Shown here one piece after another: positions 146 through 17,474 of a stretch of DNA of 32,557 bases. Position numbers and translations under genes: made by a program. This DNA is from an uncultured euryarchaeote (GTDB taxonomy: Archaea > Thermoplasmatota > Poseidoniia > Poseidoniales > Poseidoniaceae): the NCBI GenBank assembly GCA_937899865.1, contig CALBRH010000039.1:1-32557 (forward strand). Direction: 5' to 3'. Positions within the stretch are counted from its first letter, which is position 1; each line of letters opens with the position of its first letter. Under the pieces are notes generated by a model. That model was not told where the DNA came from. It ran no database searches and worked only from the letters and a program-made list of their open reading frames with translations.

Positions 146-694
146 ATGGCGGACTCTGGGATGCTTTCAGACACTCCAATCCCAGAGGATGAACCATATT
201 TTCCCGAAGGAGCCATAGTCGATTCCTTAGCTGTTCTTTCAGGTGTTACAGATGCAGTTTTTATGCCATGGATAGAGGATAGAATTAGTTTGATTTGGCT
301 AGAACCTAATGATGATCGCTTAGGAATTACAAGATTTGAAGAGGGCTCAACTGAATTAAATCGAAGACGCAGATTAAGACTAGATCCTGGTAAAGTAACT
401 ATTGGCTTACATCCAGCATTGCTCGAAGATGAGCAACTTTATCGCCATACTTTTGTCCATGAGTTTCTTCATGCTGCAGGACTTACACTTCATACTCCAT
501 TACACGATGAATTAACCAACAAAGTTGCTCCAACTCCAAAAATGTCAGAATCGCCATTACTTCAACGGCTTCGAGATTCTGTTCTTGGAGATCTAAAAGT
601 AAAAACTTGGTCTTGCGAACATTGTGGTTACACTTGGGATAGAACCACAGTTAGAAAACCAACTCGTTGCCATAAATGTGCTCGTCCGTTGTGA
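146..694 (+). CDS. SprT-like/M48-like HExxH zinc metalloprotein with C-terminal Zn ribbon
   Basis: HTFVHEFLHAAG..H motif, then CEHC...CHKC at the C-terminus. Family assignment is from motifs only. Confidence 0.6.
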   Translation: MADSGMLSDTPIPEDEPYFPEGAIVDSLAVLSGVTDAVFMPWIEDRISLIWLEPNDDRLGITRFEEGSTELNRRRRLRLDPGKVTIGLHPALLEDEQLYRHTFVHEFLHAAGLTLHTPLHDELTNKVAPTPKMSESPLLQRLRDSVLGDLKVKTWSCEHCGYTWDRTTVRKPTRCHKCARPL

Positions 695-740
695 AATAGC
701 ATCCTCAAAGTTCATCAAAGAGATACTTTTCGGGTGGTTT

Positions 741-816
741 GGACGTATAGTGTAGTTGGATATCACTCTGGCCTTCTAAGCCGGCGACCCGGGTTCGAAT
801 CCTGGTACGTCCGCCA
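741..816 (+). tRNA. tRNA-Arg(TCT), CCA encoded
   Basis: Acceptor stem GGACGTA/TACGTCC, anticodon arm CTGGC-CTTCTAA-GCCGG, T loop GGTTCGAATCC, ends GCCA. Confidence 0.95.
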
Positions 817-828
817 CCTAAATATCTC

Positions 829-853
829 AAATTTAGTTGCTGTCGCTAAATTT
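829..853. other. Perfect 8-bp inverted repeat between tRNA-Arg and eL41 (possible terminator hairpin or operator)
   Basis: AAATTTAG-N9-CTAAATTT. Function not determinable from sequence. Confidence 0.35.
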
Positions 854-869
854 CTTACATCAAATCTCC

Positions 870-886
870 CGATGCTCTCATATATG
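870..886 (+). promoter_or_regulatory. Putative BRE/TATA-like promoter for rpl41e-tRNA-Trp
   Basis: CGA-N5-TCATATAT ending about 27 nt before the ATG at 913. The same heptamer recurs at 17483 and 31994. Confidence 0.45.
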
Positions 887-912
887 GCATGTATGTGGGT
901 TGGTTGTTCACC

Positions 913-1020
913 ATGAAGAGAGGCTCACGTGCTTGGAAGAAATCTGGTAATCAAAGATGGAAGTGGCGCAAGAAGAAACTGCGACGCAGAAAGCGTGCTC
1001 GCCGACAGGCTAAGAACTGA
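913..1020 (+). CDS. rpl41e: Ribosomal protein eL41 (L41e/eS32), 35 aa, below the ORF-track cutoff
   Basis: Manual translation MKRGSRAWKKSGNQRWKWRKKKLRRRKRARRQAKN matches the archaeal L41e pattern KRSSRRWKKKG.MRWKW.KKRLRRLKR. Confidence 0.9.
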   Translation: MKRGSRAWKKSGNQRWKWRKKKLRRRKRARRQAKN

Positions 1021-1037
1021 TTCTGAAGGTGAACCGA

Positions 1038-1221
1038 GGGAGTATAGTATAGCTTGGTAGTATCGCGGGCTCCAGTTGCACAGGAATGAAGACGAGTGGG
1101 TTTGCTGAAGTTGATGACCAACTGGAGCGCCGACCTGTTGCATCCTGCTAACCTTGCCCATAATATGGGCGGTTCCAGAAGAAATCCGCTGGGGGGGGTT
1201 CAAATCCCTCTGCTCCCACCA
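1038..1221 (+). tRNA. tRNA-Trp(CCA) with 108-nt intron at 37/38 (1076-1183), CCA encoded
   Basis: Acceptor stem GGGAGTA/TGCTCCC, anticodon stem GCGGG(1065-69)/TCCGC(1185-89), loop CTCCAG|A, T loop TTCAAAT, ends ACCA. Confidence 0.93.
1077..1142 (+). ncRNA. Intron-encoded box C/D guide RNA for tRNA-Trp Cm34 (and Um39)
   Basis: Box C ATGAAGA 1086-92, D' CTGA 1105-08, C' TTGATGA 1111-17, D CCGA 1130-33. Terminal stem TGCACAGG/CCTGTTGCA. D guide 1119-1128 pairs 10 bp with 1069-1078 and its D+5 base G1125 is opposite C34 (1072). Same arrangement as the established euryarchaeal tRNA-Trp intron guide. Confidence 0.88.
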
Positions 1222-1281
1222 ATTAACAAAACATGAATATCTTGATGTGTGATTGGTTTTTGCTTGGGTTGAGGGAGAGTT

Positions 1282-3450
1282 ATGAAGCGACTATTAGCAG
1301 TGTTTCTGTGCGCAGTCATCTTTTTGCCATTAACCGGTTCAATTTACGATCAACCTGTTTACAATAGAGCCAATTGGTCGTCAATTGATGATTCTGGAAT
1401 TCATTGGATGAATCTTGAAGATACTTACCAAATTCCCATACAAGCTGAACCATCATGGGTAGAAGATAATCCAGAATGGTACGAAAGGTCAATCTATGAT
1501 GAAAATAAAAACGCAATCCATGATTCTATAGAAATTTCAGAAGTCCCAGTAGGCATGGGTATTTCTTACAATACTGAAGTCTCAGAGACTCATATCGCTC
1601 AATTAGAGCAGTTAGGAATCGAAGTTGTTGACGTTATTGAAGCGATAAACTCGGTTCTTATTGGAGTTCAAGAAGTATCATTAGCACAGACATTGGTAGA
1701 ACTTCCTAATGTTGTCATGGTACATCATTATGGTACTGTGGTATTCTATGGCGACATCCAAACACCCAATGTTAAGGCAAGAAATTCCTCAATATATCCT
1801 GACGCAGCATGGAACTTTGGCGTTACAGGTAAAGGTGTAAACATCGCAATGGTCGATACAGGAGTAGATAATGAACATCCCGGATTGGTTGGAAAGTTCG
1901 TTGCTGGTTATGATGCAGTTTGTTATTTACACACCGATCCAACTTGTGTTGCAGCAGGTCTTGGAGCCCGTGAGACAGACGGTTCTTATGACCCAGATGA
2001 TGGTAATCAACACGGTACAGCTTGTATAGGGATGTCATCGGCTACGGGTATTGAAGCAGATGGTAGTCAAAGCGAGTTTTATGGTTCAGCCCCAGATTCC
2101 TCTCTTGTCGATGTTAGAATAGGTACTGATGTTGGAGCAGGGCCATTTGAAAATTATCTTCTTGAACAAGAATTCTATGAGTCAGCGATGAATGGAATTC
2201 AGTGGATTATTGATAACAAAGATACTGCTTGGGCAGGTGTTGATGAAAGTCTGCATGGCATTGATATCATTTCTTTATCTTGGGGAATTACTTCTCACGA
2301 AGATGGTGGTTCAGATGGAACAGATATGCACAGTATGATTCTTGATGTTGCAATGGAAGAAGGTATTGTAGTCAGTGTTGCGGCAGGAAATGATGGGCCT
2401 AGTAATGATGGTCTTTCGGGCATGGGCTCTTCAGACCTTTCGATAACTGTTGGCGCTACTGATGATGGCAATACTATTACTAGAGATGACGATACAATCG
2501 CTTCTTACTCATCCCGTGGCCCTAGAAGAGATAATGGTGATGGCAATCCCCTCAACGAATTAAAGCCTGAAATAACCGCGCCAGGGACTAACATCATTCA
2601 AGCAGAAGGATGTGTAACATCTGGCTCATGCAATAATTTCCTTGGCGGCGATGCTTCATCCAATACTTACACGAGTAGAGGTTCAGGGACTTCATATGCC
2701 ACTCCTTCTGTGTCAGGAATACTGGCATTAATGATTGAAGCTAATGAGGACTTGTCTCCGTTTGAGATGAAGGAGATACTCAAGTTTACTGCAGAGCGTA
2801 AAGGTGAGCCTACTCAACCTGATGTAGATCCATACTGGAATCGAGATTTTGGTTGGGGTCTTGTTGATGCATATGAGGCAGTAAAATTGTCTATTGAGTT
2901 GAAGGAACAGAACTTGACAGGTAAAATAGACACAAACACTCAAGTTCATATTGAATCAATGGGCTTTGATAATGAATCAATGCTCTATGTAATCGATGGA
3001 GTTGCATGGGGTCAGATGGGTTCAGTAAATGCTGTTGAATATCGAATAAATGATGGTAATTGGATGTCTGCTGCATTTGAGGAATCTAATACTACTTTGG
3101 GTGCACTTGAAAGATTTGCTTGGTCAATCGCCCTTGATACAGATAAAATCGCTAAAGGTAACAATACCTTAGAAGTAAGAGGAATCAGCGACGATGGACA
3201 ATCACTTCCAGTAATTGTAACAGTTGCAGGAGATGGAAATTCTAATTCACATTCTGAATCATTGTTTGAAAAATTCCATCTTGATTTTATTTTCATCGCA
3301 TTATTCCTAATTGTAGTATTATTGTTATGGAATGCTAGAACCAGCAGTCCAGAAAACTTGACATTAGATAGTAATGAATCGATAAATAAAGTTCTCAAGG
3401 ATGACATGGATATCGCATCAGTAGTCGACGCTGAACTATTGGAAGGGTAA
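1282..3450 (+). CDS. Secreted, C-terminally membrane-anchored subtilisin-like serine protease (S8)
   Basis: Signal peptide MKRLLAVFLCAVIFL; catalytic motifs VDTG, HGT, AAGN (oxyanion), SGTSYATP; C-terminal beta-rich domain, TM FIFIALFLIVVLLLW and a short acidic tail. Confidence 0.92.
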   Translation: MKRLLAVFLCAVIFLPLTGSIYDQPVYNRANWSSIDDSGIHWMNLEDTYQIPIQAEPSWVEDNPEWYERSIYDENKNAIHDSIEISEVPVGMGISYNTEVSETHIAQLEQLGIEVVDVIEAINSVLIGVQEVSLAQTLVELPNVVMVHHYGTVVFYGDIQTPNVKARNSSIYPDAAWNFGVTGKGVNIAMVDTGVDNEHPGLVGKFVAGYDAVCYLHTDPTCVAAGLGARETDGSYDPDDGNQHGTACIGMSSATGIEADGSQSEFYGSAPDSSLVDVRIGTDVGAGPFENYLLEQEFYESAMNGIQWIIDNKDTAWAGVDESLHGIDIISLSWGITSHEDGGSDGTDMHSMILDVAMEEGIVVSVAAGNDGPSNDGLSGMGSSDLSITVGATDDGNTITRDDDTIASYSSRGPRRDNGDGNPLNELKPEITAPGTNIIQAEGCVTSGSCNNFLGGDASSNTYTSRGSGTSYATPSVSGILALMIEANEDLSPFEMKEILKFTAERKGEPTQPDVDPYWNRDFGWGLVDAYEAVKLSIELKEQNLTGKIDTNTQVHIESMGFDNESMLYVIDGVAWGQMGSVNAVEYRINDGNWMSAAFEESNTTLGALERFAWSIALDTDKIAKGNNTLEVRGISDDGQSLPVIVTVAGDGNSNSHSESLFEKFHLDFIFIALFLIVVLLLWNARTSSPENLTLDSNESINKVLKDDMDIASVVDAELLEG

Positions 3451-6586: not shown

Positions 6587-9500
6587 ATGTGTAGAACCTT
6601 CATGGCTCGAATGTTGATGATGATGAGAAGGCTCTCTTCGATTTCCCTTGTTACTTTGTTACTGTTACAAACACTTGCATTAAATTATGTTCCAGAAGCG
6701 GAAGCTGTTTCTGCTAGAGGTGGTGCAAAAGATGACTTTAGTATCTCCAGCATAGAATTAGGAAATACGTCGTTTGAACCCGAAATTTGGATTCAACCCG
6801 ATGGACAAATCCAAGAGTATTTGCTTCAAAATGATGAGGTTGAAGTAATAATAACAGTATCTAAGGATGGGCCAATCACTGGAACTCAAAAGCAAACAGA
6901 TGCTAAACTTGAGATTGTTCATCCAATCGGATTTGTAATTGAAACATTTTATTGGACTACTGACCTAATTGCTGGTGGCCAAGGATTCGAATATAGTCTA
7001 CTGTGGAATCCACAGGAAGCCCATTCTGTTCTAAATACAACAACTAACGAATTAACCGGTGGATTAATCCTTAGAGCATCGGTGAATTTTACTGACGATG
7101 ATAGAAATGACAACGATGTTATGGAAAAGCAAGTTCCTATCGCTGTACATAAGGATTTAATGGATGGAGAAGCCAATGGCAATATCTTGACATTTAGGCC
7201 TGCAAGGTATCCAATTGGCGGTGGTGATGCAAATAATTACGGCTCTTGGTATGAAGATAGTGACGATTCTGCAGTAGGTAATTCTCATTGGAGAATGTCA
7301 TTACCTGGCAACTCCTACCCATCTAGCGCTTTTGACAGACTAGTCCATTCCTTCAAAAACGGCAACAATGATTGTAGTGGAGATGCTCTTGACGCAGGAT
7401 TGTCGTCAATTAACCAGATACCTGTATGCAGAAAATTATTCCAATCTCAAGAATATATCTCTACACAAGTTCACCTACAAGCATGGGGTACAATGGGTGC
7501 AGGAGATGCAGCCTATCTAGAATTTTGGAACGGTAATGGTAACTTTTCAGATCCGTTACAATCAGTTCATTGGGACGTTGCAGCAATTAATCCAAGTCCA
7601 GTTCCAGGGCAATGGAAGAATATTTCATGGGATCCACAAACAGTATGGTCACAAAACCCAGCATTGATGAATCCAGATTTATTGCTTGGTGGTAATGCTT
7701 GGACCTTTGGCCTAGTTTTACGTTCTGATAGTTCAGGAGCAACTCAAGGTATGCACTTTGATGATTTTGTTCAGTTTGGTATTTCCAAAGTTGATGGATT
7801 TACTTTAACCGCAAATTGTGATAATCCAGTAGGTGGCTTTGAAACAGTTCCTAACGACCTTGTTTCCTGGAAGTGTTTGGTAACTAATAATGGTTACAAA
7901 AATGTTCAATTCCGTGCTGAAACAAATATTACCAATGCTTCTTGGATGGATCCAATAGTACCTCAATTACGTCTTGATACAACAAATCCAAATGATAATG
8001 ATTTTAATGTTGTTATTCCGCCAATTGGTCCTTTTGAAACAACAGAGGTTTGGGCAAATTTATCAATACCTCCTGGTGCAGATGTCCAAATTCAAGATTG
8101 GGAAATTTGGTTCACTGATGCTAGTTCAGCTAATACGGGAGAAAAAGCGCGTGTAGCGACAAAAGTTTCTATTAATTCACAATACAGCGTTAGACTAACA
8201 TCAACAACTTCACAGATTGCTCTCACTATGGATCCAGGGGAATCTCAATTATTGCCTTTCACAATTTTCAATACTGGTAATTTAGATTCTACTTTCCAAC
8301 TTAGTTCTACTTTTAGTGAGGACTTATGGTCTGGAACGGTACAAGATGAATTAGGTAATGCGATTACTTCATTGTTTATGCTCAAAGGGACATCAGCAAA
8401 CTTGAACCTACTTATTTCTGCAGAGCAGCAAGCCTCTCCAGGTCAAGTCAATATCAATATTAGAGCATCACGTACTAGTGGTGATGTAGTTGGGGACACA
8501 TTGTTGACACGAATTATCGATGTGCCAATTTATCGAGATTTTGATTTGGAGACAAGTTATACTCTATTTAGTGATGATAATGGCAGATTGTTTGTTGAAG
8601 GTTTTGCTAATGAGGAATCCAAATCAATACTAATGTCGTTATACAATAATGGAAACGATGAGGAATCTTACAATATTTCAGTAACCAATAATTTCCCAAT
8701 TAAATATCGTGAATCTGGTTCTTATGTCGATACATTACAATCTCCATTACTTGATGAGTGGGGAGGCTCATGGACTTTCTTCCTAAATCTACCAATGCCA
8801 ATTGGATTACCTGAAGGATTCTATGAGGTTATAGTTACTGCAACCAATGTTGATGATCCGTCACTTACAGTTAGTGAGGTAATCCCAGTCGAGATAAGAC
8901 AAACTGCTAGTGTTCATGTTGAAACAGATATTTCAGACCAGTCGTATATTCCAGGGGACATTGCTCAATCAATGACTTTTGAAGTAACCAATAATGGCAA
9001 TATTCCAGACACATTCAACATGAGTCTAAACCTGCCACAAGGAATGAATGCTCAGTTTACCAATTTGGTAAATGGTCAATTGACTCCAGTCATAGACAGC
9101 GGTGCGAGTTACAATGTGACGGTTGAGTTTTCTTTTGATAGCGGCGTTAGTGGTAATTTGCAAATGGTAATTATTGGAAAGAGTGAGTTTGACAACACAG
9201 TTGTTGCTAGTGGTGGCTCGACATACTCTGTAGGAAGCTCCAATCAGTGGCTTAAGATACTGCCATCTCAACAAGTAATTATCGATGATTTTGAAAATGA
9301 AGTAGTTCTTGAAGTTACAGTTAGAAATCAATACTCTAGTGCCCAATCGGTATCAATGGATATTGATTATGGCAATTCCAGTAGTTGGTATCAGTCTAGA
9401 ATCGATAGTAGCGACCGTCAATTTGTTCTAGGTACAGGTGATGATTCAGTTAGAGTGGTAACAATTCGATTTGAGGTTACTGAGGACACTTTGAAGAATT

Positions 9501-10147
9501 TAGATAGTCCAACATTTGATTCTGAAATTATTCTTTGGGCTCGCTCAGATACTGTTAGTGATGCTGCACAATCGAATATTCAAATTCAGTTGAGAAAGAT
9601 AATTATCGAGACTAATGATGATACAAGTTCAGGATTTGACTTTGCCGGAGCAGCTACTTGGCTTGCGTTCATTGTTGTTATTGTTGGTGGAATTGTAGTA
9701 ACAATCAGAATCCTGAGAAGTGTTGAAGAAGAGGAAGATGAATATGCAAATTGGGGTCAAGAAGGCTATCAAGATAGCTTAACCTCAACATATCAGTCGG
9801 TTATCTCAGCACCAACTGTACCTTCTGGACCACCAGCAACTGTCCCAACATCTATGCCGCCTCAAGCCCAAGAGCCTCCAACATCTATGCCTCCACAAGC
9901 TCCAGTGAAACCAGTTCCTGAAATAGCACCGGAACAGGAGTCGACTGGATCAAACCAAACAATAGTCCAAAATATCACATATAATATCCATGATAGTGCG
10001 ATATCTGGAGATGTTCTTGCTAGTGCTGGAAAAGTATCAAACCCTGCTGGGCCACCTTTGCCGGCAACAGGCTTACCTGAAGGATGGACAATGGAACAAT
10101 GGAATGCATACGGTGAAATGTGGTTGTCACAAAATCAGCAAAACTGA
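6587..10147 (+). CDS. Large cell-surface protein: signal peptide, beta-sandwich domains with CARDB/NEW3-like Ig repeats, TM anchor, Pro-rich cytoplasmic tail
   Basis: Hydrophobic N-terminus (start may be 6602, 6611 or 6617). Repeated (F/L)x(V/I)xNxGNxxDTF-like motifs: NNGYKNVQF, NTGNLDSTF, NNGNDEESY, NNGNIPDTF. Many N-x-S/T sequons. TM WLAFIVVIVGGIVVTI. Confidence 0.75.
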   Translation: MCRTFMARMLMMMRRLSSISLVTLLLLQTLALNYVPEAEAVSARGGAKDDFSISSIELGNTSFEPEIWIQPDGQIQEYLLQNDEVEVIITVSKDGPITGTQKQTDAKLEIVHPIGFVIETFYWTTDLIAGGQGFEYSLLWNPQEAHSVLNTTTNELTGGLILRASVNFTDDDRNDNDVMEKQVPIAVHKDLMDGEANGNILTFRPARYPIGGGDANNYGSWYEDSDDSAVGNSHWRMSLPGNSYPSSAFDRLVHSFKNGNNDCSGDALDAGLSSINQIPVCRKLFQSQEYISTQVHLQAWGTMGAGDAAYLEFWNGNGNFSDPLQSVHWDVAAINPSPVPGQWKNISWDPQTVWSQNPALMNPDLLLGGNAWTFGLVLRSDSSGATQGMHFDDFVQFGISKVDGFTLTANCDNPVGGFETVPNDLVSWKCLVTNNGYKNVQFRAETNITNASWMDPIVPQLRLDTTNPNDNDFNVVIPPIGPFETTEVWANLSIPPGADVQIQDWEIWFTDASSANTGEKARVATKVSINSQYSVRLTSTTSQIALTMDPGESQLLPFTIFNTGNLDSTFQLSSTFSEDLWSGTVQDELGNAITSLFMLKGTSANLNLLISAEQQASPGQVNINIRASRTSGDVVGDTLLTRIIDVPIYRDFDLETSYTLFSDDNGRLFVEGFANEESKSILMSLYNNGNDEESYNISVTNNFPIKYRESGSYVDTLQSPLLDEWGGSWTFFLNLPMPIGLPEGFYEVIVTATNVDDPSLTVSEVIPVEIRQTASVHVETDISDQSYIPGDIAQSMTFEVTNNGNIPDTFNMSLNLPQGMNAQFTNLVNGQLTPVIDSGASYNVTVEFSFDSGVSGNLQMVIIGKSEFDNTVVASGGSTYSVGSSNQWLKILPSQQVIIDDFENEVVLEVTVRNQYSSAQSVSMDIDYGNSSSWYQSRIDSSDRQFVLGTGDDSVRVVTIRFEVTEDTLKNLDSPTFDSEIILWARSDTVSDAAQSNIQIQLRKIIIETNDDTSSGFDFAGAATWLAFIVVIVGGIVVTIRILRSVEEEEDEYANWGQEGYQDSLTSTYQSVISAPTVPSGPPATVPTSMPPQAQEPPTSMPPQAPVKPVPEIAPEQESTGSNQTIVQNITYNIHDSAISGDVLASAGKVSNPAGPPLPATGLPEGWTMEQWNAYGEMWLSQNQQN
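9845..9900 (+). repeat. Intragenic tandem duplication, period 33 nt (PTSMPPQA x2)
   Basis: CCAACATCTATGCC occurs exactly at 9845 and 9878. Confidence 0.8.
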
Positions 10148-10217: not shown

Positions 10218-11840
10218 ATGTACGGTAATGGACAAGCACCAATTTTCATTTTGAAAGATGGCACTCAAAGAACAAGAGGTAGAACCGCTCAATCAAACAA
10301 CATAGCAGCGGCGAAAGCCGTAGCAGATGCAGTTAGATCAACTCTTGGTCCAAAAGGAATGGACAAGATGCTAGTTGATTCAATGGGTGATGTTGTAATT
10401 ACCAATGATGGTGCAACAATTCTCAAAGAAATGGATATTGAACATCCAGCAGCCAAGATGATTATCGAGGTAGCAAAAACCCAAGAGCAACATTGTTTTG
10501 ATGGTACTACTACTGCAGTAGTTCTATCAGGTGAATTACTCAAGCGTAGTGAAGATTTGATTGAACAAAATGTTCATCCAACCGTTATCTGTGAAGGATT
10601 TAGATTAGCGGCTGAGAAAGCTGTTGAGTTGTTGGAAAGCCATGGTATTGCGACAAAGAATGATGATGCAGTGTTGATGGAAGTGGCAAAGACCGCTTTG
10701 ACCGGTAAATCTGCTGGTGCGGTTAAGTCTTTCATGGCTGATATTTGTGTTAGGTCAGTTAATGCTGTTGGAATAATTGAAGGAGACCAAAGAATTGTTG
10801 ATCTATCTGATATTAAGGTAGAAAAGCGTCAAGGAGGCTCAATCAAAGATTCCAACCTAATTGATGGAATTATTTTAGACAAAGAGAGAGTTCATGCTGG
10901 TATGCCAAGATCAGTTAAAGGCGCTAAGATTGCATTGGTTAATTCAGCAATCGAAGTCAAGAAAACTGAAGTTGACGCTAAGATACAAATTACTGACCCA
11001 AACCAATTATCAAAATTCCTTGAAGAGGAAGAAAACTACATCAAAGGCTTAGTTGAGAAGATTCAAAACTCCGGAGCTAATGTACTAATATGTCAAAAAG
11101 GGATTGATGAACTAGCTCAACATTACATGGCTAAAGCAGGAATTTTTGCTATCAGAAGAGCCAAGAAATCTGATATGGAAGCATTGTCAAAAGCAACTAG
11201 TGGTAAGATTGTCACCAATCTCGATGACTTGACAAGTGATGATTTAGGCAATGCAGAGAAAGTCGAAGAGAAGAAAATTGGGGAGTCAGAAATGACTTTT
11301 ATCACAGGATGCCCTGAGGCAAAATCAGTTTCAGTGCTTCTTCGTGGCGGAACTGAGCATGTAGTTGATGAGATTAGGCGAGCATTCGACGATGCCGTAG
11401 GTGTTGTTTCAGTTGCTTGGGAAGATGGCGCAGTTTTGACCGGTGGAGGAAGTGTTTTGGCTGCTTTGTCAAGAGATCTTCGAACCTTTGCTGAAACTGT
11501 TGGAGGAAGAGAGCAAATGGCAATCGAGGCATTTGCTTCTGCGTTAGAAATTATTCCACGAACTTTAGCTGAAAATGCTGGGCTTGATCCTGTGACTACA
11601 CTAATTGAACTTAGAAAAGCTCATGCTGATGGTCAATCAAATGCTGGAATCAATGTCTATGAAGGCGGAGTCGTCGACATGAGAGGAGCAAATGTACTCG
11701 AACCAATTAGAGTGGTTGAACAAGCAATACAATCTGCTACCGAAACCGCAGTTATGATTCTAAGAATAGATGACGTAATTTCGTCCAAGGGAGTCTCAAT
11801 GGGAGACGAGATGGGTGATATGGGCGATTTCCACATGTGA
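10218..11840 (+). CDS. ths: Thermosome subunit (group II chaperonin)
   Basis: Motifs [41 protein letters not shown], and an MGD-repeat tail. Alpha versus beta cannot be resolved. Confidence 0.96.
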
Positions 11841-11946: not shown

Positions 11947-13917
11947 ATGACGGTTGTCGCGAAGGTTTGGATTGAAGATGATTGTATCACCTGTGATGCA
12001 TGTCAAGACATCGCTCCTGAAGTATTCGAAGTTACAGATGAAACTTCGAAAATTCTAGCAGCGGTTAGAACTGATGGTACCTTTGACAGAAATACAGGTA
12101 AAGCGCCTTTAGCAGGAGATTTTGGTACTCAATACGGAGAATTAATTCTTGAAGCTTCAGAAGCCTGCCCGGTTGAAATCATCAAATACGAATTGGTTAC
12201 AGATGGTGCAGAAGTTGTCGAAGTAGAAGTTTCTGCAGAAGTAGCAGTAGAAGCCGCAGCTCCAGCGGCTGAAGCAGTCGCAGTTTCAGGCGCAGCCAGT
12301 GGAGAATTGATGGCCTTAATGGAGGGTGACAGATCACTTGCAATTCTATTTGGTTCTCAAACCGGAAACGCAGCTGGTTTAGCAGAAAAGACTGCAAAAC
12401 TTGCAACAAATTACGGATTAGTTCCTACCGTGTATGATATGGATGGACTTGATGTATCTACATTGGCTAATCACAAGAGAACGTTAATCATAACCTCAAC
12501 ATGGGGCGAGGGTGAAATGCCAGATAATGCTGAATCCCTTTGGCAGACCGTTAATTCTCAAGGACCATCTCTTTCAGGTGTTAATTTCAGTGTTTGTGCT
12601 ATCGGTGATACAGCTTACGATGAATTCTGTAAAGCAGGTACTGATTGGGATGATAAGTACCAAGCATTGGGTGCTAACAAGGTTCACGAAATACAGTTGT
12701 GCGACGTCGATTACGAACCTCCTTGGGCTTCATGGGTTGCAGAAGCATTGCCAAAAATCGCTTGTGTAGATTCATCAGGAACACTTCAAATTGAACTTTT
12801 AGATCAAATGATTGCTTATGGTAGCAGTGGTGATGAGGAAGAGGTATCTGGTGATTTCGCACCTAGAGTAGTAGACAAGAGCGAATTAACGGTCACACTA
12901 GAAATTTTCCGATATTGTCCAACAGCTGCAGAATCAGGATGGGATACAGTAGTTTGCTCAATACCCGCAAATGCCTCTATTCAAGATATGCTGATGGCAG
13001 TCAAGAATAGCGTAGATGGCAGTTTGACTTTTAGAGTTGGAAACGGATCAGGTTCGCCAACATCAGGTGTAAGAGTCAATGGAAGACTAGCACTGGCAGA
13101 TATAACCAGTATTTCTGATGTAATTGGAGCAGATGGTAGAATAAAGATAGAACCTATTCCTGGATATCCGGTCATTAGAGATTTAATGGTTGATTATTCC
13201 AAGTTTGAAGAAAACCGTATGAAAGCAAAACCATGGATGTCATCCAGTCCAAGAGAAGGAGAGTATCTAATCAATGGAGTGGCAGTAGGAGTTATGGAAT
13301 CAAGTGAAGCGGTTAAACTGCATTCAATTAGTGATGTTCGATCATATCATCTTGTTCATTCGATGTCTGATACTGTTGCTTATGATTCCAAGTATGAAGG
13401 TCCAGGCATCCATCTACAGAGATGGAATAGAATTATGGATCCAAGGTCTAGTGAGTCGTACAAGAATTCATTGATTGCATCGCTTAACAATTCAAATGGA
13501 ATTTGGGGGGAAGCAGACTTATCCTCAATTGCAAGATATGGGCAGGAAGGTAAGACTGCGTCAGATGGCCTCAATGATATTAGAGCCTATATTCTAAATC
13601 AAACGAATTATCGTGGCCCACATGGCAGATTGGTCAAATGGTATGGCCGTAGTGTTAAATGGACTGGTAAATTGAATGAGACAACTCTATACAGGCAAGT
13701 TTTGGGTCCTGTAGGTTTAATCAGCAATATTTTTGATGGAGTATCAGCGAGAATGGTGCTAGGATTCACCAGAACTGGAGGTCCTCCAATTCGAAGTCTT
13801 CAAGCATTGGTTCTACCACCTGCAGGAATTGGTAAAATACCAAACATGTTCAATTCTAAGGTCAAGAACCATCATCAAGTTGTAGGCTTATTCAATGAAA
13901 TTGATCAGAGGTTCTAA
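11947..13917 (+). CDS. Fusion: [4Fe-4S] ferredoxin + flavodoxin + SdhB/FrdB-fold domain lacking all Fe-S cysteines
   Basis: CITCDAC...CP (C13, C16, C19, C74). Flavodoxin motifs FGSQTGNA, TSTWGEGEMPDNA, IGDTAYDEFC. SdhB-like motifs LEIFRY, SLTFR, VNGRLALA, IEPIPGYPVIRDLMVD, YEGP, DPR with the ligand positions substituted. Confidence 0.85.
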   Translation: MTVVAKVWIEDDCITCDACQDIAPEVFEVTDETSKILAAVRTDGTFDRNTGKAPLAGDFGTQYGELILEASEACPVEIIKYELVTDGAEVVEVEVSAEVAVEAAAPAAEAVAVSGAASGELMALMEGDRSLAILFGSQTGNAAGLAEKTAKLATNYGLVPTVYDMDGLDVSTLANHKRTLIITSTWGEGEMPDNAESLWQTVNSQGPSLSGVNFSVCAIGDTAYDEFCKAGTDWDDKYQALGANKVHEIQLCDVDYEPPWASWVAEALPKIACVDSSGTLQIELLDQMIAYGSSGDEEEVSGDFAPRVVDKSELTVTLEIFRYCPTAAESGWDTVVCSIPANASIQDMLMAVKNSVDGSLTFRVGNGSGSPTSGVRVNGRLALADITSISDVIGADGRIKIEPIPGYPVIRDLMVDYSKFEENRMKAKPWMSSSPREGEYLINGVAVGVMESSEAVKLHSISDVRSYHLVHSMSDTVAYDSKYEGPGIHLQRWNRIMDPRSSESYKNSLIASLNNSNGIWGEADLSSIARYGQEGKTASDGLNDIRAYILNQTNYRGPHGRLVKWYGRSVKWTGKLNETTLYRQVLGPVGLISNIFDGVSARMVLGFTRTGGPPIRSLQALVLPPAGIGKIPNMFNSKVKNHHQVVGLFNEIDQRF

Positions 13918-13926
13918 GTGATTAAG

Positions 13927-14784
13927 ATGCCTAAGATAGCATATTATCCGGGAAATGTTGCAAGAGCTGCATCAATGGAAGTTGAAGATTGCATTCAACC
14001 ACTTTGTAAAACACTTGGAATTGAGTTAATTGAATTGCCAGAGGCAACCAGTGATGGTGGTAACATTATCAAGCAAGCATCAAGCAAACTACAGCATGCA
14101 TTGGTTGCAAGGAATCTTGCTCTAGCCGAGGAAAAAGGACTGGACATTATGACTACTTGCGCAACTAGTCATGGAATAATGAAGGAAACTATGGATGATC
14201 TAAACAATGATCCTGTTTATGCTGCACAACTGAATAACTTGATTGCTCGCTCAACCGGTGTTGAATATCGTGGTGAAGCAGATTCATGGCACTTACTTCA
14301 CTATCTTGTTGAAGAGATTGGTTTGGATAAAGTAACCGATGCAGTAATTAATCCAATTCAACTTAACATTGCACCATATTATGGGCCAAATATGCAAAGA
14401 GAAGGATTCTGTGCTGGTGATGACCCCTTTATGCCAAATTATCTAGAGCAACTAATTAGCGCTATAGGTGGCACTCCAGTTAACTACGACTTAAAATGCC
14501 AAAGTGTAGGAGCGCCATCATTACTTACCTTGGAGAAGCCAGTAATGTCTTTGATTTCATCAGTAATTTCAGATGCAAAATCAAACGGAGCAGAACTAAT
14601 TGTTAGCGCATGTACGGTTTCTCATGCAAACTTAGATTCCTATCAAACCAAAGCAGGAAGAAAGACAGGTAAGAATACTAGTATCCCAGTTGTTCATTTG
14701 GCAGAATTAGTTGCTTTTGCATTTGGGCACTTCCCAGATAGGCTTGCTCAATTGAGAACTAGAGCGATCTTAATTGGTGGCTGA
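13927..14784 (+). CDS. HdrB/SdhE-type (CCG-domain) protein with degenerate cluster motifs
   Basis: KIAYYPG, LGIELIELP, ARNLALAE, HLLHYLVEEIG, PYYG, AKSNGA, NLD and IPVVHLAELV match the HdrB/SdhE layout, but both CCG motifs are absent. ATG 13927 (track GTG 13918). Confidence 0.85.
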   Translation: MPKIAYYPGNVARAASMEVEDCIQPLCKTLGIELIELPEATSDGGNIIKQASSKLQHALVARNLALAEEKGLDIMTTCATSHGIMKETMDDLNNDPVYAAQLNNLIARSTGVEYRGEADSWHLLHYLVEEIGLDKVTDAVINPIQLNIAPYYGPNMQREGFCAGDDPFMPNYLEQLISAIGGTPVNYDLKCQSVGAPSLLTLEKPVMSLISSVISDAKSNGAELIVSACTVSHANLDSYQTKAGRKTGKNTSIPVVHLAELVAFAFGHFPDRLAQLRTRAILIGG

Positions 14785-14785
14785 T

Positions 14786-17356
14786 TTAGAATAAAGTTGC
14801 GATTTTGGCTAAATCTTCAGTTGTCAAGTCATTTGCTAATTCATCTAAATCTTGCTTAAACAAGCCTGCTATTGACTGATATTTATTTATCAATTTAGCA
14901 CAAATATTGTATTCAATATTGGTGATTGAAGATAATAATTCAATTTGATTGGATAAGCCAAAATCATTCCATTTTTGCAATAAATATTCTGAATCCTTAT
15001 TGTTATTTACCATGTTTGAAATTTCTATAGAAGCCGCTTCACAGCACTTGATTACTTCCGATTCATCAATTTCAGTATACTTGACGAATTCTCTTATTGC
15101 TTTAGAGAATTGACCACTTTGTTTTGCAATTAAGTAAACTAGATGAGCTGATTCCATAGAATCTTTAGTAGTAAGTATTGGAACTCCTAAATCAAGAGTG
15201 ACATGAGCTAATGCACCTAAAACAGCATTTGGATGGACTGAGTTGCCAATTTCACCTAATTCAATCAAGAGTAATGGCTGTAATTCAGCATTTTTCATTC
15301 TTTGACATTGTTTGAACAATCTTTGATCAATAATTGAAGTAAGTAAATCTCGTGATGTCTTTCTCTCAATCAATATGTCGCCATGAATCAAAATATCGCC
15401 AGTTGTTAGATTCTCATATTGTACAGTCATTCCAAGACTACTGATATATGCTGATAAAGTTGATGAAGCCTCTCTATAGTCTAGAGTAATTGTTGCACTA
15501 ATGTTTTCTGTCAAAGTATCGATTATTTCATTGGCAGCATTGATAGAATCGATTTCTTGTTCTCTTGTTTGTGGGACTTTATCTGATTGGTTACCAAAAA
15601 AATCATCTAAACCTGTTTGATTACGCGGCCGCTTATCTTTTGCATCGATGATAGTTTTATTCTTAGTTGAACTTTGTCGTGGTTTAATCTCAACGACTTC
15701 AGTAGGTTTTTCATTAGCATAAATTGATTCTAATCTATCAGTTTCTAATTCCAGGAATTTTTCAGATGAAATTATTTCTCCATCTACATTTATTTCAAAT
15801 GATGATAAAGATTCATCAGATGAATTTGGCCTAAATTGAATTCTTCCCTGACGTTCAATTTCCGCTAAATTATTGTACATTTTTCGCTCTCTTGCTTTGG
15901 CAGCATGACTAACAAATTGATCTCGAGTATCTTTTGTAACTAGAGTTTTTACTGTTCCAGACCTTTGACGTGCAGTCCTTCCTCGACGCTGAATAGACCT
16001 TATTGCACTGGGTACTGGCTCATACATCAAAACTAAATCTGCTGCAGGAACATCTAATCCTTCTTCACCAACTGAAGTTGCAACTAGTACATTGACATGG
16101 CCACTCCTAAACTCATCGAGCCTTGCGAGTTGTTGCTTTTGTGTCATTCCTTTTTGCTTGCCACTGGATGATTGACCAATAAATTGTGAAACTTTCACTC
16201 CTTCTATATTTGTCAGCAATTCGATGAGATTAGTTACAGTGTAGCGATATTCAGTGAATATTAGTATTCTTGATGAAGGGTTTTGTTGGATTCTTTGCTC
16301 AACCATAGATCTTACAATTTCAGCCTTAGGATGTAATTCTTCCAAGTTTTTAGCATTCATTCTAAAGTTATGAATTACTGGCTTAGCAAGAAATCTGTTA
16401 GTGCCTCTATCACCACTTCGGCCTTCAGTTTCTGCTTTATCTAAGAAAGCTAATGCCGCTTTTATTCCTTGAGTCTTTAGTAAGTCGAGTAGCATATGCA
16501 TCCGTCGAATATCAGATACTTTTCTTGCAGCATTATAGCCTCTTGCATCTCTACGATTTATTGCCCTGCTAACAGCCATTTGAGTATCGGTGATTATTTT
16601 TGCAGTAATGTGTTTCACCGGTCCCATAAAACCCATTCTTTGAATACTTTCTACTTCGTTCGCTTGATGTTCTTGAAGTGGAAAAATGAGTGTCTTTAGA
16701 GATTCAGGAAGTTCGACATTGATGATGTCATTATGTAATGTCACTGCATATGGTTTCAGTAATGCTTCGTCTTTTATTGAGACATCAAGCCTATCTATTC
16801 CTAAGCGTTTAGCCACTTCGAGAATCGCTGCTTTACTTGAACCAGGGCTTGCAGTTGCTGCTAATGTAAACCCACTGGGATTTTGATTTAGATATAAGTC
16901 TCCAACTTGGGCATAAGCATGATTTCCTGTGGCATGGTGTGCTTCATCAAAAATAATTAATGAGACGTCATCAAGTAATATTTTACCATTAGTGGCATCA
17001 TTTCTAATGACTTGCGGTGTTGCCATTAGAATACGTGCATTATCCCAAATTTCAGAACGTTTATCAGGCGAAGTTTCACCGGTGTAACGCAAAATTTCTT
17101 CTGGGGCAATATCGATCATTTCTCTTGCCATTCGTTGTTGTTGTGCAACTAATCCAGTTGTAGGTGCAATTAGGATTATTTTCTTATCTTGCAATCTAAG
17201 GAATTCTGCCATCACCATCCATTCTACAGCGGTTTTACCAAAACCGGTTGGCATTACCATAAGGCAAGATGAGGATAGAGCATTTTTTAGTGCTCTAATC
17301 TGATAAGCTCTAGCCTCTACCCCATCTTGTAGTAAAGGGTGTACGACGGTAGGCAT
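14786..17356 (-). CDS. hef: Hef (FANCM-like DEAH helicase + ERCC4/XPF nuclease)
   Basis: PTGFGKT, FDEAHH, ATASPG, TSVGEEGLD, QRRGRTAR; nuclease motif GD..ERKTSRD. Likely start MPTVVHP at 17356 (track start 17407). Confidence 0.93.
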   Translation of the reverse strand: MPTVVHPLLQDGVEARAYQIRALKNALSSSCLMVMPTGFGKTAVEWMVMAEFLRLQDKKIILIAPTTGLVAQQQRMAREMIDIAPEEILRYTGETSPDKRSEIWDNARILMATPQVIRNDATNGKILLDDVSLIIFDEAHHATGNHAYAQVGDLYLNQNPSGFTLAATASPGSSKAAILEVAKRLGIDRLDVSIKDEALLKPYAVTLHNDIINVELPESLKTLIFPLQEHQANEVESIQRMGFMGPVKHITAKIITDTQMAVSRAINRRDARGYNAARKVSDIRRMHMLLDLLKTQGIKAALAFLDKAETEGRSGDRGTNRFLAKPVIHNFRMNAKNLEELHPKAEIVRSMVEQRIQQNPSSRILIFTEYRYTVTNLIELLTNIEGVKVSQFIGQSSSGKQKGMTQKQQLARLDEFRSGHVNVLVATSVGEEGLDVPAADLVLMYEPVPSAIRSIQRRGRTARQRSGTVKTLVTKDTRDQFVSHAAKARERKMYNNLAEIERQGRIQFRPNSSDESLSSFEINVDGEIISSEKFLELETDRLESIYANEKPTEVVEIKPRQSSTKNKTIIDAKDKRPRNQTGLDDFFGNQSDKVPQTREQEIDSINAANEIIDTLTENISATITLDYREASSTLSAYISSLGMTVQYENLTTGDILIHGDILIERKTSRDLLTSIIDQRLFKQCQRMKNAELQPLLLIELGEIGNSVHPNAVLGALAHVTLDLGVPILTTKDSMESAHLVYLIAKQSGQFSKAIREFVKYTEIDESEVIKCCEAASIEISNMVNNNKDSEYLLQKWNDFGLSNQIELLSSITNIEYNICAKLINKYQSIAGLFKQDLDELANDLTTEDLAKIATLF

Positions 17357-17474
17357 CAAGTTATCTTCTTGTCGAGGGTTCAAAAGCATGATGATAATTA
17401 ATACCAAACTTTAAACCATAAAAATCTCTTTATTTTTCTGTCGCATAATCGATTGACACAATCCCAATGTAGAC

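What the first reader, a model, noticed from the sequence alone, without database searches (positions are those of the whole stretch)
12883..13917. SdhB/FrdB-fold domain with all three cluster-binding motifs erased
By-eye alignment to the SdhB pattern. 2Fe-2S motif FRRSCREGxCGSD...NG...LAC reads FRVGNGSGSPTSGVRVNGRLALAD. CxxCxxCxxxCP reads DVRSYHLVHSMSD. FRCHxxxNCxxxCPKG reads IWGEADLSSIARYGQEG. Flanking signatures stay near-canonical: IFRY, SLTFR, IEPIPGYPVIRDLMVD, KPW, YEGP, DPR, and an HdrC-like GKLNE tail. The only Cys left (RYCP, VVCS) are at non-ligand positions. Bulky residues (Y, V, I, E) at former ligand sites suggest the cavities were filled, which is how a selected pseudo-domain would look.
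Basis: partly seen in the sequence, partly recalled or inferred. Interest (0 to 1): 0.75.

Follow-up and report, generated by a model that had tools for sequence, protein, structure and literature searches.

The report
Iron-sulfur-free SdhB domain kept as scaffold
A core gene of the marine archaea Poseidoniales ends in a true copy of succinate dehydrogenase's iron-sulfur subunit that has lost all eleven cluster-binding cysteines but is still strongly conserved, most likely as a clamp that holds a similarly stripped HdrB-like partner next to tethered ferredoxin and flavodoxin carriers.

Summary
Residues 313-656 of the 656-aa ORF 11947-13917 are a real SdhB/FrdB homologue: Pfam Fer2_3 3.5e-12, PDB 1nek_B 7e-10, and a Foldseek match of the model to about 30 SdhB/FrdB chains at E about 1e-12 with TM about 0.8. 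None of the 11 canonical Cys ligand columns holds Cys, in the window or in 24 diverse orthologues.

It is not decay. The domain is single-copy in 120 of 121 Poseidoniales genomes searched and was not found in the other Thermoplasmatota searched. Synteny is fixed, and dN is 0.07-0.18 against saturated dS.

It descends from a type-E SdhB. The next gene (13918-14784) is an HdrB/SdhE-like protein that keeps only 2 of its 10 CCG cysteines. A complex model places the ex-cluster residues and the C-terminal arm on that partner (ipSAE 0.90, controls 0.00).

Upstream in the same chain lie an intact single-cluster ferredoxin and a CysJ-type FMN domain. In other lineages the ferredoxin was replaced at least twice by a duplicated flavodoxin, and the partner's last intact CCG motif was lost twice.

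My reading is a cluster-free scaffold with tethered carriers. The substrate is unknown.

This scan reached the same conclusion earlier on five other Poseidoniales genomes. I found no paper describing it.

The parts
11947..12201 (+). N-terminal single-cluster ferredoxin domain (aa 1-85). The CxxCxxC...CP motif is intact: C13, C16, C19 and C74-P75.
   Evidence: Pfam Fer4_13, 1.1e-09. The four Cys and P75 are invariant in 19 ferredoxin-type orthologues. Model pLDDT is about 86.
12202..12318 (+). Ala/Glu/Val-rich flexible linker (aa 86-124).
   Evidence: pLDDT 24-45 in the full-length model. Length and sequence vary among orthologues.
12319..12828 (+). CysJ/CPR-type FMN (flavodoxin) domain (aa 125-294). 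It is the only Flavodoxin_1 domain in this genome.
   Evidence: Pfam Flavodoxin_1, 4.4e-28. NCBIfam cysJ, 5.5e-34 over aa 124-272. The FMN loops GSQxGN, STWGEGxxPDNA and GDxxYxxxC are invariant. It is the single hit in the genome.
12829..12882 (+). Short acidic linker between the FMN domain and the SdhB-like domain (aa 295-312).
   Evidence: pLDDT 38-46. The region is variable in alignment A4.
12883..13245 (+). Fer2_3-like (plant-ferredoxin-fold) half of the SdhB-like domain (aa 313-433). The 2Fe-2S ligands are replaced by N366, a gap, S373 and D385.
   Evidence: Pfam Fer2_3, 3.5e-12. pLDDT is about 90 in the domain model. Ligand columns were mapped.
13246..13626 (+). Helical half that carries two clusters in real SdhB (aa 434-560). 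All 7 ligands are replaced. S474-D475 and E522-x-D524 are invariant at or next to former ligand columns.
   Evidence: The Foldseek alignment spans whole SdhB chains. Columns were mapped and invariants. D475 and E522-D524 are predicted to touch S196-G198 and P157 of the partner.
13627..13917 (+). C-terminal arm (aa 561-656 plus stop), with GKLNE, a family-specific insertion (about aa 601-625, nt 13747-13821, invariant R602, M603, F607, T608, R609, G611) and the HHxVV..F..RF tail. It is the best conserved part of the domain.
   Evidence: It aligns with the C-terminal extension of roughly 310-aa canonical SdhBs, except for the insertion. dN is 0.009-0.074, the lowest of all segments. It is disordered when modelled alone, but residues 574-578, 594-603 and 636-656 lie in the predicted interface.
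13918..14784 (+). Adjacent gene for an HdrB/SdhE-like two-CCG-domain protein (288 aa from GTG 13918; the start is more likely ATG 13927). Only C81 and C232 remain of the 10 CCG cysteines.
   Evidence: NCBIfam HdrB TIGR03288 at 3.1e-38 and MFR SdhE at 2.6e-29, both far below their cut-offs. PDB HdrB 8rvv_B at 6.6e-32 and 5odc_B at 5.7e-26. Ligand states across 26 genomes are. It is always adjacent to the fusion gene.

Best explanation
Residues 313-656 are a descendant of a long (type-E) SdhB iron-sulfur subunit. It lost all three clusters before the Poseidoniales radiated. It is kept under strong purifying selection as a structural adaptor, not as an electron wire.

Its C-terminal arm and the remodelled former cluster-2 and cluster-3 surfaces (S474-D475, E522-x-D524) clamp the product of the next gene. 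That partner is an HdrB/SdhE-like protein whose own CCG cluster sites are dead (second motif, in all lineages) or dying (first motif).

Redox work is done by the domains fused upstream on flexible linkers. An outer carrier (a [4Fe-4S] ferredoxin here, a second flavodoxin in other lineages) passes electrons to a CysJ-type FMN domain. That domain must reach its acceptor directly, as a swinging shuttle, because no cofactor chain runs through the SdhB-like domain.

Shown: homology, fold, loss of ligands, selection, synteny and carrier swapping. Supported by a model only: binding of the partner and the position of the ex-cluster residues in the interface. Inferred: the electron path and the scaffold role. 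The acceptor or substrate is unknown.
For: Homology and fold:
- Pfam, PDB and NCBIfam hits.
- The AF2 model matches whole SdhB/FrdB chains at E about 1e-12, TM about 0.8.

Loss of ligands:
- 0 of 11 ligand Cys in the window and in 24 orthologues down to 35% identity, except one Cys in one orthologue at one column.
- The replacements are variable or hydrophobic, except invariant S474 and E522.

Selection:
- 120 of 121 Poseidoniales genomes carry it, single copy.
- In the phylum sample, every genome outside the order gave either no hit or only a canonical SdhB hit at E >= 2e-14. Family members score E <= 1.9e-58.
- Only about 10 clusters at 50% identity among 1.8 billion representatives.
- dN is 0.07-0.18 with dS above 1.4. 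The C-terminal arm has dN 0.009-0.074.

Type-E ancestry and the partner:
- Gene order thermosome, fusion gene, HdrB-like gene is kept in 8 diverse genomes, and the pair is adjacent in all 25 loci examined.
- The nearest canonical relative in a Thermoplasmatota genome sits in an sdhA, sdhB (332 aa), CCG-protein operon.
- Complex model: ipSAE 0.90, best of 3 controls 0.00. That mark was reached by 58 of 80 solved complexes and 2 of 110 mismatched pairs. The runs share at least 85% of contacts and the partner's pLDDT is at least 89. The counts hold only roughly, because my own alignments were used. HdrB-HdrC complexes are solved, so the pass may reflect likeness to them.

Carriers:
- Ferredoxin and FMN motifs are invariant.
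- The linkers have pLDDT 24-46 and the full-length pTM is 0.35.
- The ferredoxin is replaced by a second flavodoxin in six of the loci examined. Each extra flavodoxin is closer to its own central one (56-65% identity) than to the extra one of the other lineage (41%), which points to independent duplications.

Stepwise loss in the partner:
- The first CCG motif is intact in 7 of 26 genomes, in unresolved or weakly supported positions outside the two loss clades. It is lost in two separately supported clades (100/100 each).
Against: - No biochemical data exist, and no cofactor content has been measured.
- The complex score could come from resemblance to solved HdrBC structures.
- The full-length model gives no confident placement of the FMN domain (pTM 0.35), so the 'swinging shuttle' is an inference from linkers, not an observation.
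- The invariant acidic and polar residues at former cluster sites (D475, E522, D524) and the invariant insertion R602-G611 could form a new binding or catalytic site rather than a mere interface.
- dS is saturated, so the dN/dS ratios are only rough.
Confidence: 0.75

Rival explanations
1. The pair is still an enzyme. The FMN domain reduces a substrate, either a quinone as at the SdhE site of type-E SQR or a disulfide as in HdrB. The substrate binds in the remodelled pocket of the HdrB-like subunit, and the retained C81 and C232 or the invariant D475/E522/D524 act in binding or catalysis. The tethered ferredoxin would link the genome's 2-oxoacid:ferredoxin oxidoreductase to this acceptor. This extends the scaffold reading rather than excluding it.
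For: - C81, C232 and H236 are invariant in 24 orthologues, and much of the HdrB core is conserved (R65, H125, Y154-Y155, D168-D169, D240, Q243).
- That ferredoxin and flavodoxin are interchangeable argues that electrons really flow.
- The genome has one OFOR alpha subunit and only one other small ferredoxin-like ORF.
- Flavodoxin-fold FMN proteins such as WrbA reduce quinones directly (my own knowledge).
Against: - The cysteines that bridge the catalytic iron in HdrB (C81 and C234 of 5ODC numbering, PMC13083937) align with S84 and S235 here. They are lost, and the retained Cys are the non-catalytic C78 and C231 equivalents.
- No substrate can be inferred from the gene context: thermosome, Hef, ribosomal operon.
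- No membrane segment was looked for or found.
Confidence: 0.3
2. The SdhB-like domain still docks on an SdhA-type flavoprotein (the genome's SdhA or the L-aspartate oxidase NadB). The tethered FMN replaces the cluster chain and exchanges electrons with that protein's FAD.
For: - The Fer2_3-like half, which contacts SdhA in complex II, is well folded (pLDDT about 90) and conserved.
- The genome has a NadB with no iron-sulfur partner gene beside it (TIGR00551 at 498 bits against a 452-bit cut-off).
Against: - No SdhA-like gene lies in the conserved neighbourhood in any of 8 genomes.
- The genome's SdhA sits next to a canonical, Cys-complete SdhB.
- No test of such binding was run.
Confidence: 0.08
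3. The domain still holds iron-sulfur clusters or another metal centre through non-cysteine ligands (Asp, Glu, Ser, His).
For: S474, D475, E522 and D524 are invariant at or beside former ligand columns. A single metal ion at the interface cannot be excluded.
Against: - No former cluster site keeps more than one conserved polar residue at ligand columns.
- The 2Fe-2S columns are variable and include a deletion. Three of the four cluster-2 columns are hydrophobic. Cluster-3 columns two and three are I/L/V and G.
- Lineages that also swapped the ferredoxin for a flavodoxin and lost the partner's CCG motifs point to selection for removing iron.
Confidence: 0.04
4. The domain is a decaying remnant with no function of its own, carried along by the useful ferredoxin-flavodoxin part.
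For: All cofactor ligands are gone, and Pfam scores are much weaker than for canonical SdhB (46.7 against about 105-111 bits).
Against: - It is present and full-length, without stops, in 120 of 121 genomes.
- dN is as low as in the FMN domain, and lowest in the C-terminal arm.
- 32 columns are invariant across 24 orthologues at 35-87% identity.
- It gives a confident fold.
Confidence: 0.02

Closest known systems
SdhB + SdhE (formerly SdhC) of type-E / non-classical succinate:quinone oxidoreductases (Sulfolobus and Acidianus type; Campylobacter and Wolinella MFR SdhABE)
   Same: - A long SdhB of about 310-330 aa with a C-terminal extension, followed by a gene for a two-CCG-domain HdrB-like subunit.
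- The best NCBIfam models are PRK12576 and MFR SdhB for the domain and MFR SdhE for the partner.
- The nearest canonical relatives sit in sdhA-sdhB-CCG operons.
- The SdhB fold is confirmed.
   Different: - No SdhA gene. In its place a ferredoxin and an FMN domain are fused to the N-terminus.
- 0 of 11 SdhB ligand cysteines and 2 of 10 CCG cysteines remain in this genome.
- A family-specific insertion of about 25 aa with an invariant R-M-x3-F-T-R-x-G motif.
- SdhE of Sulfolobus binds a [4Fe-4S] cluster (PMC2754724). This partner cannot.
HdrB-HdrC of methanogen heterodisulfide reductase (PDB 5ODC, 8RVV)
   Same: - The partner aligns with HdrB over its full length (E 6.6e-32).
- A cluster-carrying subunit wraps a C-terminal arm around HdrB. 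The predicted interface here likewise uses the C-terminal arm.
   Different: - HdrC is a two-[4Fe-4S] ferredoxin without the Fer2_3 half.
- HdrB needs two noncubane clusters with bridging Cys81 and Cys234 (PMC13083937). Both positions are Ser here.
EtfD, FadF and DgcB (HdrD-like proteins with altered or missing CCG clusters)
   Same: These are a precedent for CCG-domain proteins of aerobes that remodel or lose one CCG cluster. EtfD has a linear [3Fe-4S] cluster in place of a noncubane one, and FadF and DgcB lack the D1 ligands. The authors link this to life with oxygen (PMC13083937).
   Different: Those proteins keep a continuous Fe-S wire and a membrane haem domain. Here the whole wire is gone and flavin carriers are tethered instead.
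FMN domains of diflavin reductases (CysJ, cytochrome P450 reductase)
   Same: The central domain matches the CysJ FMN domain (5.5e-34) with all FMN loops intact. It sits between flexible linkers like a shuttle domain.
   Different: There is no FAD/NADPH (FNR-like) domain. The electron donor is a fused ferredoxin or a second flavodoxin.

Membership tests
SdhB/FrdB iron-sulfur subunit | Sequence homology and fold (Fer2_3 N-domain plus helical C-domain) | tested here: met
   Pfam Fer2_3 at 46.7 bits, above the 27-bit cut-off. 1nek_B at 6.9e-10. Foldseek E about 1e-12, TM 0.75-0.84 to whole SdhB/FrdB chains.
SdhB/FrdB iron-sulfur subunit | Four Cys ligands of the [2Fe-2S] cluster | tested here: not met
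   N366, gap, S373 and D385. The columns are variable in 24 orthologues.
SdhB/FrdB iron-sulfur subunit | CxxCxxCxxxCP motif of the [4Fe-4S] cluster | tested here: not met
   V464, Y467, V470 and S474. No Fer4_8 Pfam hit, unlike the canonical relatives.
SdhB/FrdB iron-sulfur subunit | CxxxxxCxxxCP motif of the third cluster | tested here: not met
   E522, I528 and G532.
SdhB/FrdB iron-sulfur subunit | Encoded with, and working with, an SdhA/FrdA flavoprotein | tested here: not met
   No FAD_binding_2 gene in the conserved neighbourhood. The genome's SdhA lies beside a canonical 256-aa SdhB on another contig. Physical binding was not tested.
Type-E (long) SdhB subgroup | C-terminal extension of about 80 aa and an adjacent CCG-domain subunit gene | tested here: met
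   It aligns to the C-terminus of roughly 310-aa canonical SdhBs. It matches the 317-320-aa models PRK12576 and MFR SdhB. The HdrB/SdhE-like gene is adjacent in all 25 loci.
HdrB/SdhE CCG-domain proteins (the partner gene) | Two CX31-39CCX35-36CXXC motifs | tested here: not met
   In the window the first motif reads N13, S45-D46, C81, S84 and the second P157, S196-V197, C232, S235. The first motif is intact in 7 of 26 orthologues. The second is intact in none.
HdrB/SdhE CCG-domain proteins (the partner gene) | Full-length sequence homology | tested here: met
   TIGR03288 at 3.1e-38, but 131.7 bits against a 345-bit cut-off. 8rvv_B at 6.6e-32 over residues 6-271.
Flavodoxin / diflavin-reductase FMN domain | Phosphate loop (S/T-x-T/S-G-x-T/A type) and the two isoalloxazine-flanking loops | tested here: met
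   GSQTGN, STWGEGEMPDNA and GDTAYDEFC are invariant or nearly so in 19 orthologues. Pfam 98.7 bits. FMN binding itself cannot be tested with these tools.
Single-cluster ferredoxin (Fer4_13) | CxxCxxC...CP ligands | tested here: met
   C13, C16, C19 and C74-P75 are invariant. Pfam 39.2 bits against a 24.5-bit cut-off.

The most novel reading that the evidence does not exclude
The pair is a working oxidoreductase in which an entire Fe-S wire was replaced during evolution by tethered flavin shuttles. The wire comprised three SdhB clusters and two noncubane CCG clusters. In the double-flavodoxin lineages this gives a wholly iron-free descendant of a complex-II/Hdr-type enzyme. It would link the cell's ferredoxin/flavodoxin pool (for example from 2-oxoacid:ferredoxin oxidoreductase) to a quinone or a disulfide at the remodelled HdrB-like site. 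The driver would be iron scarcity or oxygen stress in the surface ocean.
Probability: 0.3. Interest if true: 0.85.

Novelty: new variant of a known kind. Interest (0 to 1): 0.7.

Why it matters
- **Protein evolution.** SdhB is one of the most conserved iron-sulfur proteins known. A clade-wide, strongly selected copy with none of its 11 ligands shows that the fold can outlive its cofactors and take on a structural role.
- **Stepwise loss of iron.** The SdhB clusters and the second CCG site are missing in every lineage examined. The first CCG site was lost twice. The ferredoxin was replaced by a flavodoxin at least twice. This is a rare, well-resolved case of iron being removed from a redox module step by step.
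- **Ecology.** The organisms are among the most abundant archaea of the iron-poor, oxygenated surface ocean.
- **Annotation.** Current records label these genes 'succinate dehydrogenase Fe-S protein', 'heterodisulfide reductase subunit B' or even 'cytochrome b subunit'. That mislabelling misleads metabolic reconstructions of Marine Group II.
- **Open question.** The function may bear on how aerobic archaea re-oxidise ferredoxin.

Tried and rejected
- **The look-up of encoding contigs.** I studied the context of canonical relatives through the genome search and the fetch from genomes instead.
- **Literature.** Four of the five searches found no paper describing this protein: 'Marine Group II' + flavodoxin + succinate dehydrogenase gave 0 papers, and 'Poseidoniales' + flavodoxin gave 3 irrelevant ones. 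The CCG-domain search did not find one either, but led to the two papers I cite (PMC2754724, PMC13083937).
- **ESM Atlas.** The look-up of the partner only returned HdrB-like clusters.
- **Full-length AF2 model.** pTM was 0.35 and the linkers were of low confidence. It says nothing on where the FMN domain docks.
- **dN/dS ratios.** dS is saturated (1.4 to above 4, or undefined), so I report only that dN is low.
- **Catalytic cysteines.** I considered that the retained C81 and C232 were the catalytic bridging cysteines of HdrB. The alignment to 5odc_B shows that they are the C78 and C231 equivalents, and that the bridging C81 and C234 are Ser here (PMC13083937).
- **A second SdhB-like hit in the genome.** The hit on contig C63 is the small subunit of a molybdenum hydroxylase and is unrelated to this module.
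- **Natural fusion in G019.** The fusion and partner genes form one 998-aa open frame there. It rests on one MAG and deletes the conserved last 25 aa, so I give it no weight.
Full report
**What is there.** The window is archaeal. It holds a thermosome gene at 10218-11840, a Hef helicase-nuclease at 14786-17407 on the minus strand, and a ribosomal-protein operon from 17640. The closest named database proteins are from Candidatus Poseidoniales, the Marine Group II archaea.

The finding lies in ORF 11947-13917, which encodes 656 aa. Pfam sees three domains:
- Fer4_13 ferredoxin, aa 10-80, 1.1e-09.
- Flavodoxin_1, aa 133-254, 4.4e-28.
- Fer2_3, the N-terminal domain of SdhB/FrdB, aa 317-421, 3.5e-12, 46.7 bits against a 27-bit cut-off.

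- This part alone matches E. coli SdhB (1nek_B, 6.9e-10), E. coli FrdB (1kf6_B, aligned over residues 5-209) and about 20 further SdhB/FrdB chains.
- NCBIfam places it nearest the long, 317-330-aa SdhB models (PRK12576 1.3e-19, PRK12577, MFR SdhB), always far below their trusted cut-offs.
- An AlphaFold2 model built on 24 orthologues has pLDDT about 90 over the Fer2_3-like half and 80-89 over most of the helical half. The last 80 or so residues are disordered.
- Foldseek matches that model to whole SdhB/FrdB chains at E 1e-12 to 1e-9 and TM (target) 0.75-0.84.

I aligned 24 orthologues with six canonical roughly 310-aa relatives. Eleven columns are Cys in the canonical proteins. The family holds no Cys in them, apart from one Cys in one orthologue at one column.

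**Can the sites still hold clusters?** No.
- The 2Fe-2S columns are variable (N/A/D/S/P; a deletion; T/S; D/G).
- Three cluster-2 columns are hydrophobic (V/I/F, Y/P/A/F, L/V/A). The fourth is an invariant Ser (S474).
- The cluster-3 columns are an invariant Glu (E522), then I/L/V, then mostly Gly.
- No site keeps more than one conserved polar residue at a ligand column.

**Selection.**
- The domain is found once in 120 of 121 Poseidoniales genomes, and in all 56 of high quality.
- It was not found in the 7 genomes of the sister family in the same class.
- Elsewhere in the phylum only canonical SdhBs match, at E >= 2e-14. Family members score <= 1.9e-58.
- Among 1.8 billion representative proteins there are only about ten full-length 50%-identity clusters, followed by the same gap.
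- Against congeners, dN is 0.07-0.18 while dS is saturated. The C-terminal 96 residues are the most constrained, with dN 0.009-0.074.
- 32 columns are invariant across 24 orthologues at 35-87% identity.

The genome also has an ordinary, Cys-complete SdhB (256 aa) next to SdhA on another contig. This copy is therefore not the cell's complex II.

**It is half of a pair.** The next ORF (13918-14784) probably starts at ATG 13927, with a GAGGT 14 nt upstream.

- It aligns over its full length with HdrB (TIGR03288 3.1e-38; 8rvv_B 6.6e-32; 5odc_B 5.7e-26) and with MFR SdhE (2.6e-29).
- Of the ten cysteines of its two CCG motifs, only C81 and C232 remain.
- The alignment to 5odc_B shows that these are the C78 and C231 equivalents. 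The cysteines that bridge the catalytic iron in HdrB (C81 and C234; PMC13083937) are S84 and S235 here.
- The order unknown 1186-aa protein, thermosome, fusion gene, HdrB-like gene, Hef (opposite strand), L3 is kept in genomes of three families. The pair is adjacent in all 25 loci examined.
- In a Thermoplasmatota genome outside the order, the nearest canonical relative lies in an sdhA, sdhB (332 aa), CCG-protein operon. That is the type-E arrangement.

The module therefore descends from a type-E SdhB-SdhE pair whose SdhA was replaced by fused carriers.

**Predicted complex.** I modelled the SdhB-like domain with the HdrB-like protein, each with a 24-row alignment.
- ipSAE was 0.90 in three runs, against 0.00 for the best of three controls.
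- The mark was reached by 58 of 80 solved complexes and 2 of 110 mismatched pairs. These counts hold only roughly, because my own alignments were used.
- The runs share at least 85% of contacts, and the partner's pLDDT is at least 89.
- HdrB-HdrC structures exist, so the pass may reflect likeness rather than show binding.

The least-error contacts pair D475 and E522-A-D524 with P157 and S196-G198. The first group sits at or beside former cluster-2 and cluster-3 ligand columns. The second group is the dead second CCG motif of the partner. The GKLNE segment, residues 594-603 and the last 20 residues also lie in the interface. The former cofactor sites of both proteins thus appear to have become protein-protein contacts. 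The arm that is disordered alone is the part under the strongest constraint.

**Carriers.**
- The ferredoxin ligands (C13, C16, C19, C74-P75) and the three FMN loops are invariant.
- The FMN domain is of the CysJ type (5.5e-34) and is the only flavodoxin domain in the genome.
- In the full-length model the three domains are confident, but the linkers are not (pLDDT 24-46) and pTM is 0.35. This fits beads on a string, but it is weak evidence.
- In six of the loci examined the ferredoxin is replaced by a second flavodoxin. One of them is a congener that is 87% identical over the rest of the protein.
- Each extra flavodoxin resembles its own central domain (56% and 65% identity) more than the extra one of the other family (41%). 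So there were at least two independent duplications.
- A Pfam survey of the order shows tandem flavodoxin hits in roughly twenty of 121 genomes.

**Stepwise loss in the partner.** The second CCG motif is dead in all 26 genomes. The first has three states:
- intact (C..CC..C..C) in 7 genomes;
- N..SC..C..T in one clade of the second family;
- N..SD..C..S in one clade of the window's family.

On a tree of the concatenated pair, the two loss states form separate clades (100/100 support each). The genomes with the intact motif lie outside both clades, at unresolved or weakly supported positions. That makes two losses. All six double-flavodoxin forms fall in clades that had already lost the motif. 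These are related genomes, so I attach no statistics. Those forms carry no Fe-S motif at all.

**Mechanism.**
- Shown: a cluster-free, selected SdhB fold that always sits next to a decaying HdrB-like partner, with intact and interchangeable electron carriers fused to it.
- Supported only by a model: that the two bind, through the arm and the ex-cluster surfaces.
- Inferred: the SdhB-like domain no longer conducts electrons. It positions the HdrB-like subunit for a mobile FMN domain, which is fed by the outer ferredoxin or flavodoxin.

The acceptor is unknown. A quinone (as at SdhE), a disulfide (as in HdrB), or a docked SdhA or NadB are the candidates. The genome has one OFOR that could feed the ferredoxin domain. 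Iron economy or oxygen sensitivity of noncubane clusters (PMC13083937) are plausible drivers. Neither was tested.

**Comparison and novelty.** The closest known system is the SdhB-SdhE pair of type-E succinate:quinone oxidoreductases. SdhE of Sulfolobus binds a [4Fe-4S] cluster (PMC2754724). Membership as an iron-sulfur subunit fails on all three ligand motifs and on the SdhA association, and only fold, the long C-terminus and the CCG neighbour are met. EtfD, FadF and DgcB give a precedent for altering or losing one CCG cluster, but they keep their wire. No paper on this protein was found. Earlier follow-ups of this scan reached the same reading on five other Poseidoniales genomes. I reached mine before seeing them and tested the shared claims here.

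Noticed in passing
G000 contig C57, locus L044:3646-6685: The genome's ordinary succinate dehydrogenase operon reads SdhA (617 aa), Cys-complete SdhB (256 aa), then a 151-aa DoxX-like membrane protein in place of a recognisable SdhC/D anchor (Pfam DoxX_2 1.6e-06).
   Followed up: partly
L033 (G019:C27:8600-12300), frame 241-3234: In one MAG the fusion gene and the HdrB-like gene form a single 998-aa open frame. The last 25 or so residues of the first protein (the conserved GKxP..HHxVV..RF tail) are deleted and the frame runs straight into MPLKYSYHPGN. This is either a natural gene fusion or an assembly error.
   Followed up: partly
other Poseidoniales genomes, e.g. G040:C5:30525-30920, G040:C3:96112-96489: The genomes with three or four Flavodoxin_1 hits also hold extra flavodoxin genes elsewhere, in frames of about 150-199 aa (stand-alone) and about 600-640 aa. 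Many of them are the ones with a tandem flavodoxin-flavodoxin pair at this locus. Most other genomes, including this one, have only the fused one.
   Followed up: no
window 13747-13821: A family-specific insertion of about 25 aa in the C-terminal arm has an invariant R-M-x3-F-T-R-x-G motif. Canonical long SdhBs lack it. Its Gly-rich FTRTGG loop is not in the confident predicted interface, and its role is unexplained.
   Followed up: partly
window 6587-10147: An 1186-aa ORF with no Pfam or NCBIfam hit is kept directly upstream of the thermosome gene, at 24-48% identity, in seven of the eight Poseidoniales genomes whose neighbourhood I compared. The eighth locus ends at a contig edge.
   Followed up: no
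window 13915-13930 and 14782-14788: The HdrB-like gene can start at GTG 13918, directly after the upstream stop codon. Orthologues begin at the equivalent of ATG 13927. Its stop codon lies 1 nt from the stop of the convergent Hef gene.
   Followed up: partly
G000 contig C63, locus L046:1117-2766 (-): An L-aspartate oxidase (NadB, TIGR00551 at 498 bits against a 452-bit cut-off) is an SdhA homologue with no iron-sulfur partner gene beside it. It is a conceivable but untested docking partner for the SdhB-like domain.
   Followed up: no
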